Shown: piece after piece, positions 15,594 through 17,332 of the stretch
Position numbering within the stretch: the first letter of the stretch is position 1
How the letters are laid out: each line of letters opens with the position of its first letter
From: the human T2T-CHM13v2.0 reference genome, Homo sapiens
NCBI RefSeq assembly: GCF_009914755.1
Contig: NC_060935.1
DNA length: 64,000 bases
Strand: one strand, 5' to 3'
Program-made: the position numbers and the translations under genes
Notes under the pieces: model-generated
What the model was told of the DNA's origin: nothing
Database searches by the model: none
Seen by the model: only the letters and a program-made list of their open reading frames with translations

Positions 15594-17332
15594 GCAGCAA
15601 AGACCACTGGTGGACACAGTGAATGACGGGGCGGAGGACCATCGTGGGCAGGCGCTGCAGCTGCCTTATCCACCAGGGCTCTGAGTGAGCCTGGGTGCCG
15701 GCTGGTGCTCTGGGACAATGTGGTCAGGGACAGGAGGTCACCCTGGTCAGTCTCACCACACACCTCCAACTGGAATCAGTCCTGTTCACAGGAGGTGGGC
15801 AAAGCCCAGTGTGTTCAGGAGCTGCCAGGCACCTGGAGCCTTTTGAGACCCTCTGACCCAGAACCAGGGATGACAGGCCTTCATTGTGGGCAACAAGGTG
15901 AGCGCTGGCTCCAGCCTCTCCCAGATCATTGTAGGTCCATTTCTTAGAAGGGCAAACTGAGGCCCAGGGTGGGCCAGTTCACTGCAGCAGAGACAGCCAG
16001 GGTTCTGGCTCCTGAAGCTGCTCTCTCCTGACCCAGCTCAAGCTCCCTCACACCCCCTGCCCTGCAGGTCTCCTTCACCGACCACAACCTGCTGGACTTG
16101 CTGCTGGCCCACCAGGTCCTGGTGAGGCAGGAGAATAGGGTGTGGAGGCAGGGAACCTAAGGCTGTTTCATGCCAACTTCCTAGAACTAAATTGAAAGGA
16201 AAACCCTAACTTTCCACACCTAAGTAACAAAAGGACCAGAGGCTACTCCATTTGACCTTTTCTGCACAGCAGATGCGAAATTGGCTGTCCCCAACAAATC
16301 AGACTAGTTGTGGGTGGAGTCTTCGTTTGCAACTTGGTAATTTCACTCCAGCCTATGAATGGTTGCTGTCCACAAACAATCAGACTGATTGTGGGTGGAG
16401 TCTTCGTTTGCATAGAAGCATAACTTTGTAACTTCACCCTAGCAAACATCTGATCCAATCAGATGTTGGCACAGGAGTGTGACCTTTGTAAGTTCACTTC
16501 AGCCTCTGATTGGCTGTTTTCCGCAACCAATCAGATTGCAGGCTACCACTTCATTTACATGAGGTGAGCATGAAGTGACCAATGGGAAACTTCTAGGGGG
16601 TATTTGGACCCAAGAAGATTCTGTATCCAGGCCCTTGAGCTGCTGCTGGGCCCACTCCCACACTGTGGAGTATACTTTCGTTTTCGATAAATCCCTGCTT
16701 TTAGGCCGGGTGTGGTGGCTCACACCTGTAATCCCAGCACTCTGGGAGGCCGAGGTGGGTGGATCACCTGAGGTCAGGAGTTCAAGACCAGCCTGGCCAA
16801 CATGGTGAAACCCTGTCTCTACTGAAAATACAAAAAAAAAAAAAAAAAAAAAAATTAGCTGAGTGTGGTGGCACACGCCTATGATCCCAGCTACTTGGGA
16901 GGCTGAAGCACAAGAATCACTTGAACTTGGGAGGCAGAGGTTGCAGTTAGCAGAGATCACACCACTGCACTCCAGCCTGGGTGACAGAGCAAGACTCCGT
17001 CTCAAAAAAAACAAAAAACAAAAAACTGCTTTCATTCTTTTGTTGCTTCATTCTTTCTTTGCTTTGCTGGGTGTTTTGTCCAATTCTTGGTTCAAAACAC
17101 CATGAACCTGGACAACTTGCAGTCACAACCCTCTACCAGGGACACTGGTGCCCGGCTATCTGGGTGCCCTCCTCCTGCTCTCAGCCTACGTGGCACGCCT
17201 CAGCGCCCAGCCTAAGCTCGAGGCCTCCCTGGCTTCCCCTGAGTATGGGAACGACCCCATCTTTGGAGGCTACAAGATGTGAGCCCACTTGGCCTCCCCA
17301 TGGGAGCAGGGTTGCCCTTGGGAATCAATAAA
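15594..17332 (+). pseudogene. Unprocessed Pi-class glutathione S-transferase pseudogene (relics of exons 5, 6 and 7)
   Basis: Hand alignment to GSTP1 in this window. Exon 5 relic 15594-15684: [20 protein letters not shown], frameshifted, donor GTGAGC. Exon 6 15792-15897: EVGKAQCVQELP-HLEPFET-LTQNQG*QAFIVGNK, 106 vs 108 nt. Exon 7 16068-16122 plus 17149-17282: 62 codons, 42/62 identical to GSTP1. AATAAA at 17327-17332; AG/GT splice sites retained. Confidence 0.93.
16123..17144 (+). mobile_element. MER51A-like ERV1 solo LTR inserted in pseudo-exon 7; contains an Alu at ~16704-17025
   Basis: Begins TGAGGCAGGAGAATAGGG...GGAACCTAAGG and ends ...GGGACA. TSD CTGG at 16119-16122 and 17145-17148. Confidence 0.88.

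What the first reader, a model, noticed from the sequence alone, without database searches (positions are those of the whole stretch)
15594..17332. Hidden intron-containing Pi-class GST pseudogene ~45 kb upstream of GSTP1, probably the relic of a second mammalian GSTP gene
Seen: three collinear segments match GSTP1 exons 5, 6 and 7, in the same orientation, with splice sites at equivalent positions and an AATAAA. Intron 6 is 170 nt (GSTP1 177); intron 5 is 107 nt (GSTP1 862). Removing the LTR restores an open 62-codon exon 7 ([62 protein letters not shown]), 42/62 identical to GSTP1. Exon 6 has two 1-nt deletions and a TGA. Inference: the differences are clustered rather than scattered. RRCSCLIH replaces [19 protein letters not shown] replaces [10 protein letters not shown], and PIFGGYK replaces PINGNGK. 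They fall on GSTP1's substrate-site region (105-109 and C-terminal tail) and resemble the GSTP-like/Gstp3-type paralogues I recall from other mammals. That would make this a unitary loss of an enzyme with different specificity, not a recent duplicate. Humans are usually described as having one Pi gene plus a processed pseudogene elsewhere.
Basis: partly seen in the sequence, partly recalled or inferred. Interest (0 to 1): 0.85.

Follow-up and report, generated by a model that had tools for sequence, protein, structure and literature searches.

The report
Dead second Pi-class GST gene
About 45 kb upstream of human GSTP1 lies the broken back half of a second, ancient Pi-class glutathione transferase gene that lemurs, tree shrews and most other placental mammals still carry intact, so the single human GSTP gene reflects a loss.

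Summary
Window 15594-17332 (+) holds collinear remnants of GSTP exons 5, 6 and 7. Splice sites sit at the GSTP1 positions, introns are 107 and 170 nt, and an AATAAA follows. Exon 6 has two 1-nt deletions and a TGA. Exon 5 has extra bases and lacks its 5' end. Exon 7 is split by a 1,022-bp LTR-like repeat carrying a nested Alu; removing the insert gives an open 62-codon exon, 42/62 identical to GSTP1. No exons 1-4 were found in window 1-60000, nor by one whole-genome protein search.

Named mammalian proteins fall into GSTP1-type and "GSTP-like" (type B) groups. In trees the relic sits inside type B (100/98), next to Eulemur and Nycticebus. A clade of relic plus primate GSTP1 is rejected (p-AU 0.027). 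Type B occurs in Afrotheria, Xenarthra and Boreoeutheria. No anthropoid type B protein was listed.

The relic is therefore a unitary, unprocessed pseudogene. It is absent from the RefSeq table and from the papers I searched. GENCODE was not checkable. Interest is moderate.

The parts
15407..15593 (-). Alu fragment, antisense, lacking its left monomer; it abuts the 5' break of the relic
   Evidence: Read: a T-run from 15407, with Alu right-monomer sequence ending abruptly at 15593. The AluY-like subtype is my recollection of diagnostic bases, not a tool result. Sequence just upstream (14735-15218) is a dispersed repeat with at least 769 candidate copies at 77-84% identity.
15594..15684 (+). Exon-5 remnant, equivalent to GSTP1 exon-5 nt ~20-104; it has 6 extra bases and two reading-frame changes
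   Evidence: (60/83 nt to GSTP1). It encodes ..VNDGAEDHR, then 4 extra nt (15646-49), then RRCSCLIHQGS, then 2 extra nt.
15685..15791 (+). Intron 5, 107 nt, GTGAGC...CAG
15792..15897 (+). Exon-6 remnant, 106 nt: two 1-nt deletions (after 15830 and after 15852) and a TGA at 15871-15873
   Evidence: (84/106 nt to GSTP1).
15898..16067 (+). Intron 6, 170 nt, GTGAGC...GCAG; both ends align with GSTP1 intron 6
16068..16122 (+). Exon 7, first 55 nt, ending in the target-site copy CTGG (16119-16122)
16123..17144 (+). LTR-like dispersed repeat (TG...CA) inserted into exon 7, with a nested sense Alu at 16704-17025
   Evidence: Junctions. Family size: at least 1195 candidate copies in the genome; the 40 scored gave 53 match rows, and apart from the self-match they are 76-93% identical (the near-full-length ones 76-88%). 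No tool named the family. The Alu target duplication (ctgctttta / ctgctttca) was read. The AluS-like subtype is recalled.
17145..17282 (+). Second CTGG copy (17145-48) and the rest of exon 7, with stop TGA at 17280-17282
   Evidence: tblastn with lemur, loris and tree-shrew type B proteins gives E 1e-12 to 1e-13.
17283..17332 (+). 3' UTR remnant with AATAAA at 17327-17332
60501..63343 (+). GSTP1, the surviving type A paralogue, same strand, 44.9 kb downstream; used as reference
   Evidence: Hub table.

Best explanation
This is the 3' half (exons 5-7) of a unitary, unprocessed pseudogene. It is the human remnant of the second placental Pi-class GST gene, annotated in other mammals as 'glutathione S-transferase P-like' and called type B here. 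It is not a copy of GSTP1.

Shown:
- Type B and GSTP1-type proteins coexist in afrotherians and boreoeutherians, and a sloth type B protein is also present. The duplication therefore predates the placental radiation.
- The relic carries type B character states and groups with lemur and loris type B.
- It carries at least seven lesions: a 5' truncation, two extra-base runs in exon 5, two 1-nt deletions and a stop in exon 6, and an LTR-like insert (with a nested Alu) in exon 7.

Inferred:
- Constraint was lost early on the haplorhine lineage. The relic has 30 amino-acid departures from the type B majority at 114 sites, against 4 in Eulemur and 14 in Nycticebus.
- Exons 1-4 were removed by a deletion next to the truncated Alu.
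- The living type B enzyme has a remodelled hydrophobic substrate site. Its Tyr109 becomes His and its Asn205 becomes Phe in Met-inclusive numbering. Both are H-site residues of GSTP1 by recall of the solved structures.
- The relic has no function today.
For: Homology and gene structure.

Two protein types among 120 named mammalian GSTPs.

Tree of 73 rows by 126 columns:
- Relic plus type B is supported 100/98.
- Relic plus Nycticebus is supported 99/82, with Eulemur joining at 88/85.
- The same 100/99 is obtained using exons 6-7 only, 98 columns.
- The same 100/98 is obtained under LG+C20 PMSF.

AU test: relic plus primate GSTP1 gives dlnL 37.8 and p 0.027.

Character states:
- At 10 sites that separate type A from non-rodent type B, the relic has the B state at 6, the A state at 0 and another state at 4.
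- His100 occurs only in the relic, Eulemur and Nycticebus, and in 0 of the 70 other rows.
- Identity is 87/123 to Eulemur type B, 78/123 to the best type A and 76/123 to human GSTP1.

Age relative to the chr12 retrocopy: the relic is older than the chr12 processed GSTP1 pseudogene. The three-way branch lengths are 0.214 for the relic against 0.050 and 0.060.

Distribution: no anthropoid or tarsier type B appears among the best 120 of 533 hits or the best 120 of 280 hits.

Literature:
- Mouse Gstp3 is ~70% identical to Gstp1/2, while human GSTP1 is 85% identical to mouse Gstp1 (bioRxiv 10.1101/2020.05.21.103036, passages read).
- Pi genes lie in tandem clusters flanked by the same genes across mammals (PMC6643896, section 12 read).
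Against: - The AU test does not reject a tree in which the 34 type B rows exclude the relic (dlnL 11.8, p 0.28). The relic could therefore be sister to type B rather than nested among primates.
- The relic-plus-Nycticebus pairing contradicts the species tree. It rests partly on K191E, which may be parallel. The relic is a long branch (0.5).
- Differences from GSTP1 are spread almost evenly over codon positions (22:18:25). The relic itself shows no trace of past purifying selection.
- Exons 1-4 are absent. That this copy was once a complete gene is inferred from orthology, not seen.
- The last 44 codons score slightly higher against human GSTP1 (41.7 bits) than against pig (38.3) or mouse (36.9) GSTP1 in the PDB.
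Confidence: 0.85

Rival explanations
1. A partial tandem duplicate of GSTP1 (exons 5-7 only) that arose within primates and was never functional.
For: Only exons 5-7 exist. The near-uniform codon-position spread of differences (22:18:25) fits neutral decay from birth. The PDB score is slightly higher to human than to pig or mouse GSTP1.
Against: The relic groups with type B at 100/98. A clade with primate GSTP1 is rejected (p-AU 0.027). It has 0 of 10 diagnostic sites in the GSTP1 state. It is 2-3 times more diverged than the chr12 retrocopy. The 5' edge is a break against a truncated Alu, not a clean duplication boundary.
Confidence: 0.03
2. A relic of a separate old lineage that is sister to all living type B genes (a third placental GSTP paralogue), not the orthologue of the lemur and loris gene.
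For: The AU test cannot reject the relic lying outside the 34 type B rows (p 0.28). The relic is a long branch, and its pairing with Nycticebus alone is not the species tree.
Against: The best trees under two models nest it with strepsirrhines. His100 is shared only with Eulemur and Nycticebus, 0 of 70 other rows. LAHQVLVPG is identical in the relic, Eulemur and Tupaia. No third type appears among the 120 proteins.
Confidence: 0.08
3. The remnant still does something, for example as part of a transcript, a regulatory element or a short peptide.
For: Exon 7 has no small indel or stop over 189 nt once the insert is removed. Splice sites and the AATAAA are intact.
Against: The insert physically splits exon 7. 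Exons 5 and 6 are frameshifted and carry a stop. No promoter or first exons were found. The RefSeq table supplied by the hub lists no gene or functional element here. The chr12 retrocopy shows a similarly low indel count (1 in 297 nt), so an open exon 7 is not unusual.
Confidence: 0.04

Closest known systems
Mammalian 'glutathione S-transferase P-like' paralogue (type B here; called GSTP2 in Tian et al. 2019, PMC6643896; the rodent branch presumably includes mouse Gstp3)
   Same: The exon structure and exon lengths match. The diagnostic residues match: Cys104, His109, Gln118, Gln121, Glu122 and Phe205. His100 is shared with lemur and loris. The relic lies within this clade in the tree.
   Different: The human copy is dead. 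It has no exons 1-4, has frameshifts, a stop and an LTR-like insert with a nested Alu, and carries 30 private replacements at 114 sites. Mouse Gstp3 was not compared directly.
Human GSTP1 (window 60501-63343)
   Same: Same strand and same cluster. Intron positions and phases are identical. Nucleotide identity in exons 5-7 is 72-79% (60/83, 84/106 and 146/189 nt), with local stretches up to 88%, and 42/62 residues match in exon 7.
   Different: It is a different paralogue: 0 of 10 diagnostic sites are in the GSTP1 state. Intron 5 is 107 nt against 862 nt. GSTP1 is intact and expressed.
GSTP1P1-type processed pseudogene on chromosome 12 (G000:C12, about 55.867 Mb; L003:1436-1836). The name is recalled.
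   Same: Both are dead Pi-class sequences that cover only the 3' part of the coding region.
   Different: The chr12 copy is intronless. It matches GSTP1 mRNA 339-737 at 87% and carries GSTP1-type residues. The window relic keeps introns 5 and 6 and is type B.

Membership tests
Pi-class GST gene, unprocessed (intron-containing) pseudogene | Significant similarity to GSTP coding exons, collinear and on one strand | tested here: met
   E 3e-24 to 9e-6 for four collinear pieces; type B queries, E 1e-13.
Pi-class GST gene, unprocessed (intron-containing) pseudogene | Introns at the positions and phases of the parent family, with GT/AG ends | tested here: met
   GT at 15685 and 15898; AG at 15790-91 and 16066-67. 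The exon 6 and 7 boundaries are identical to those of GSTP1.
Pi-class GST gene, unprocessed (intron-containing) pseudogene | Disabling lesions | tested here: met
   two 1-nt deletions and a TGA in exon 6, extra bases in exon 5, and a 1,022-bp insert in exon 7. No exons 1-4.
Type B ('GSTP-like' / GSTP2 / Gstp3-type) paralogue | Falls in the type B clade of a family tree | tested here: met
   (100/98, 100/99, 100/98). The alternative with primate GSTP1 is rejected. A position just outside crown type B is not rejected.
Type B ('GSTP-like' / GSTP2 / Gstp3-type) paralogue | Type B states at sites that separate the two paralogues | tested here: met
   6 B states, 0 A states and 4 other states at 10 sites.
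Type B ('GSTP-like' / GSTP2 / Gstp3-type) paralogue | Syntenic position between CABP2 and GSTP1 in species with an intact copy | not testable with these tools
   The protein databases give no genomic context. Indirect evidence comes from PMC6643896, section 12, which reports tandem Pi clusters with conserved flanks. The horse and star-nosed-mole gene models P0026 and P0046 join type B exon 5 to type A exon 7, as expected if B lies upstream of A on one strand.
Type B ('GSTP-like' / GSTP2 / Gstp3-type) paralogue | Orthology to mouse Gstp3 specifically | not tested
   No mouse Gstp3 sequence was returned. Rodent 'P-like' and 'P 2' proteins (P0111, 112, 115, 121, 125, 131) form a branch of type B. 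The link to Gstp3 is inferred.
Unitary pseudogene (no functional copy left in the genome) | No intact type B gene elsewhere in the human genome | tested here: met
   The tree-shrew type B protein finds only GSTP1 exons, this relic, the chr12 retrocopy and three 27-31% matches with internal stops. One search shows the relic is single-copy.

The most novel reading that the evidence does not exclude
Humans, and probably all anthropoids, lost a roughly 100-million-year-old second Pi-class GST with a re-modelled substrate pocket soon after haplorhines split from lemurs. The physical remnant of that gene is still readable 45 kb upstream of GSTP1 and has not been described. If so, mouse Gstp3 and the livestock and carnivore 'GSTP-like' enzymes have no human counterpart because of gene death rather than lineage-specific gain. 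The flanking Alu break also predicts that some New World monkeys or tarsiers may keep a fuller copy.
Probability: 0.45. Interest if true: 0.5.

Novelty: new member of a known kind. Interest (0 to 1): 0.45.

Why it matters
The usual statement is that humans have one Pi-class GST while mice have three. This relic shows the direction of that difference. The second gene is ancestral to placentals and died on the human lineage.

That bears on two practical matters. One is extrapolating Pi-class GST toxicology and knockout phenotypes from mouse, pig or dog to humans. The other is counting GST pseudogenes: one 21-mammal survey lists human Pi as 1 gene and 0 pseudogenes (PMC6643896, Table 1).

It also gives a dated, lesion-rich marker for primate phylogenomics. 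It is not a new kind of biology. Unitary pseudogenes of detoxification genes are common.

Tried and rejected
Searches that gave nothing useful:
- The first homologue search, with the 44-residue exon-7 piece and 'longer' lengths, found only P0001.
- The PDB search gave only GSTP1 orthologues.
- Searches for exons 1-4 found nothing collinear. These were blastn and tblastn with GSTP1 at E up to 10 and 1000, tblastn with lemur, loris and tree-shrew type B proteins over window 1-60000, and a whole-genome protein search.

Technical failure:
It was replaced by treekit on 73 rows.

Rows left out of the trees:
- Of the 120 proteins, 49 were left out.
- Chimeric A/B gene models: P0026, 46, 47, 48, 98.
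- Gappy models: P0037, 72, 76.
- Aberrant C-termini: P0042, 95, 124.
- The rest were same-species isoforms and further GSTP1-type rows, dropped to keep the run short.

Analyses without power:
- Codon-position and indel counts cannot tell whether the relic lineage was ever constrained.
- The global alignment of intron 6 (112/152, many gaps) was not controlled by shuffling. I rely only on its conserved ends.

- Eight searches found no description of a chromosome 11 GSTP pseudogene. 'GSTP1P2' hits are probably double-knockout mouse names rather than a pseudogene symbol; I saw only the listing, not those passages.
Its figures are not held either, and it is Figure 2, not seen, that might show a human Pi pseudogene.

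Full report
**1. What is in the sequence**

Comparing the GSTP1 gene (window 60001-64000) with window 1-60000 by blastn gives four collinear + strand matches:
- 15607-15640 (exon 5, 88%, E 9e-6)
- 15789-15913 (exon 6 plus the first 16 nt of intron 6, 79%, E 5e-22)
- 16053-16120 (end of intron 6 plus the start of exon 7, 88%, E 9e-19)
- 17151-17261 (rest of exon 7, 81%, E 3e-24)

All other hits in that call are microsatellite or Alu-type repeats.

Reading the junctions gives this layout:
- Exon-5 remnant: 15594-15684, followed by GTGAGC.
- Intron 5: 107 nt, ending in CAG.
- Exon-6 remnant: 15792-15897 (106 nt against 108 in GSTP1).
- Intron 6: 170 nt.
- Exon 7: 16068-16122 and 17149-17282.
- AATAAA: 17327-17332.

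That includes 42/62 identical residues for exon 7 once the insert is removed, and GSTP1 introns of 862 and 177 nt.

The relic is single-copy in the genome. The only other matches are GSTP1 itself and an intronless copy on chromosome 12.

**2. The lesions**

- Exon 6 has two 1-nt deletions (after 15830 and 15852) and a TGA at 15871-73, where the family has GGA.
Its first ~19 nt are missing and it is 6 nt too long. Read against lemur type B, the extra bases are 4 nt at 15646-49 and 2 nt at 15683-84.
- Exon 7 is split by a 1,022-bp element (16123-17144). It begins TG, ends CA and is flanked by a CTGG duplication.
- That element belongs to a dispersed family with at least 1195 candidate copies. 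The 40 scored candidates gave 53 match rows; apart from the self-match they are 76-93% identical, and the near-full-length ones are 76-88%. No tool named the family.
- The element carries a nested Alu (16704-17025) with its own 9-nt target duplication, matching 8/9.
- The 5' end of the relic abuts an antisense Alu that lacks its left monomer (15407-15593). Upstream of that lies another dispersed repeat.

By my recollection of Alu diagnostic bases, the nested Alu is S-like and the flanking fragment Y-like. This is recall, not a tool result.

**3. No front half**

I looked for exons 1-4 in four ways and found nothing collinear:
- blastn with word size 7 at E up to 10
- tblastn at E up to 1000 with the GSTP1 N-terminal 77 residues, against window 1-15600
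- tblastn with lemur, loris and tree-shrew type B proteins against window 1-60000
- a whole-genome search with the tree-shrew protein

Because the 5' edge is a break inside exon 5 against a truncated Alu, I infer a deletion rather than an original duplication boundary. This is inference.

**4. Which gene it was**

A search of the representative library with the last 44 codons returned unnamed mammal-like GSTP models with two kinds of C-terminus. A word-indexed search with one of them returned 120 named proteins out of 533.

Trimmed to GSTP1 columns, these proteins fall into two types:
- Type A (GSTP1): ..LRCKY..LIYTNY / [12 protein letters not shown] / VLAPGC / PINGNGKQ
- Type B, mostly annotated 'glutathione S-transferase P-like': ..R[KR].C.HLIHHNY / EEGKAQYVQELP / often VLVPGC / P[IV]FG.RKI

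The relic reads AEDHR..RRCSCLIHQGS / EVGKAQCVQELP / VLVPGY / PIFGGYKM.

At 10 sites that separate type A from non-rodent type B, it has the B state at 6, the A state at 0 and another state at 4.

Its best identities are:
- 87/123 to Eulemur type B
- 78/123 to the best type A
- 76/123 to human GSTP1

His100 is found only in the relic, Eulemur and Nycticebus (0 of 70 other rows).

**5. Trees**

I built a tree of 73 rows over the 126 columns the relic covers. The rows were 34 type B, 31 type A including human GSTP1 from the window, 6 marsupials plus one fish as outgroup, and the relic.
- Under LG+G4, relic plus type B is supported 100/98. Inside it, the relic pairs with Nycticebus (99/82) and Eulemur joins them (88/85).
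- With only exons 6-7 (98 columns), which avoids the exon-5 frame decisions, relic plus type B is 100/99.
- Under LG+C20 PMSF it is 100/98.
- Holding the relic with primate GSTP1 costs 37.8 lnL (p-AU 0.027).

Against my reading:
- A tree in which the 34 type B rows exclude the relic is only 11.8 lnL worse and is not rejected (p 0.28).
- The relic-plus-loris pairing is not the species tree.
- The relic is a long branch (0.5).

Membership of the type B lineage is therefore firm. Exact orthology to the strepsirrhine gene rests on the best tree plus His100.

Forty-nine of the 120 proteins were left out: chimeric A/B models, gappy or aberrant models, same-species isoforms and surplus type A rows.

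**6. Age of the paralogue and of its death**

Type B and type A occur together in Chrysochloris, Elephantulus and Rhynchocyon (Afrotheria). Type B also occurs in Tenrec, Choloepus (Xenarthra), Tupaia, two strepsirrhines, many laurasiatherians and six rodents. Marsupials and the fish have only A-like C-termini. The duplication therefore predates crown placentals.

Independent support comes from within the human genome:
- The chr12 processed pseudogene matches GSTP1 mRNA 339-737 at 87%.
- A three-way comparison over 292 sites gives 65, 30 and 67 differences for the three pairs.
- The corresponding branch lengths are 0.214 for the relic against 0.050 and 0.060.

No anthropoid or tarsier type B protein appears among the best 120 hits to a pig-lineage type B or to the lemur type B C-terminal half. 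All anthropoid entries are type A. Absence from annotation is weak evidence, and the databases are clustered at 90%.

Relative to the majority state of 26 non-primate, non-rodent type B proteins (114 usable sites), the relic has 30 departures, Eulemur 4 and Nycticebus 14. At 0.26 per codon, that is about what I expect for unconstrained evolution over the whole human branch since the primate root. That expectation uses a neutral length of ~0.115 substitutions per site, recalled from published mammal trees. I therefore infer early loss of constraint in haplorhines. This is inference with a recalled constant.

Differences between the relic and GSTP1 are almost even over codon positions (22:18:25). 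That fits long neutral decay but gives no positive evidence of past function.

**7.

The clusters are real, but they are mostly states of the type B paralogue. In exon 5 they are partly the result of frame changes.

Two of the A/B diagnostic positions are 109 (Tyr in A, His in B) and 205 (Asn in A, Phe in B). They correspond to Tyr108 and Asn204 of mature GSTP1, which I recall as H-site residues from the solved structures. A different substrate profile for living type B enzymes is therefore plausible but untested.

**8. What is known**

Papers I read state that humans have a single GSTP while mice have Gstp1-3:
- bioRxiv 10.1101/2020.05.21.103036 (passages): Gstp3 is ~70% identical to Gstp1/2, and human GSTP1 is 85% identical to mouse Gstp1.
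- PMC6643896 (sections 11-13 and passages): this 21-mammal survey lists human Pi as 1 gene with 0 pseudogenes. It treats 'GSTP2' as a widespread second gene under episodic positive selection, in tandem clusters with conserved flanks.

Eight full-text searches found no description of a chromosome 11 GSTP pseudogene. The RefSeq table supplied with the finding has nothing at this place.

The mouse gene order Cabp2-Gstp3-Gstp2-Gstp1 is my recollection only.

**9. Verdict**

The sequence is a unitary, unprocessed pseudogene: exons 5-7 of the ancient placental 'GSTP-like' paralogue. It is dead in humans through a 5' truncation, frameshifts, a stop and a repeat insertion.

It is a new member of a known kind and of moderate interest. 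It settles loss versus gain for the human single-GSTP state, but it involves no new mechanism and may already sit in a pseudogene track I could not see.

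Noticed in passing
L003:1436-1836 (G000:C12, about 55,867,046-55,867,446): This is an intronless partial copy of GSTP1 mRNA 339-737 at 87% identity, of GSTP1 type, with a 3-nt deletion and a TAG. 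Over exons 6-7, GSTP1 has 13 private changes against 15 in this presumably neutral retrocopy. That is more change in the functional gene than constraint would lead one to expect.
   Followed up: partly
Proteins P0026 (Equus), P0046 (Condylura), P0047 (Dasypus), P0048 (Ursus americanus), P0098 (unnamed): These public gene models mix exons of the two tandem paralogues, for example type B exons 5-6 with a type A exon 7. They are probably read-through or mis-joined predictions. They would distort any GSTP tree that includes them.
   Followed up: partly
P0001; window about 16773-17380: An unnamed database 'protein' of 169 aa is a read-through ORF across the nested Alu, the end of the LTR-like element, relic exon 7 and its 3' UTR, with three TGA codons read as W. 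It looks like primate-like DNA mis-called as a microbial protein.
   Followed up: no
window about 59980-60085: A tandem 5-nt repeat lies just upstream of the GSTP1 promoter; it shows up as staggered 21-nt self-matches. I recall it as the known ATAAA-type repeat polymorphism of GSTP1.
   Followed up: no
window 15723-15791 versus P0052 (Nycticebus isoform X1): The loris isoform carries 7 extra residues (LEYSHSQ) between exons 5 and 6. The end of the relic's intron 5 translates to ..NQSCSQ in the same place. This hints that the intron 5 ends are homologous, but the stretch is too short to count as evidence.
   Followed up: no
window 13600-15407: The stretch upstream of the relic is a patchwork of dispersed repeats. 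14735-15218 has at least 769 candidate copies at 77-84% identity. There are two full Alus at about 13930-14230 and 14388-14730. 15219-15406 did not match that family and was not identified.
   Followed up: partly
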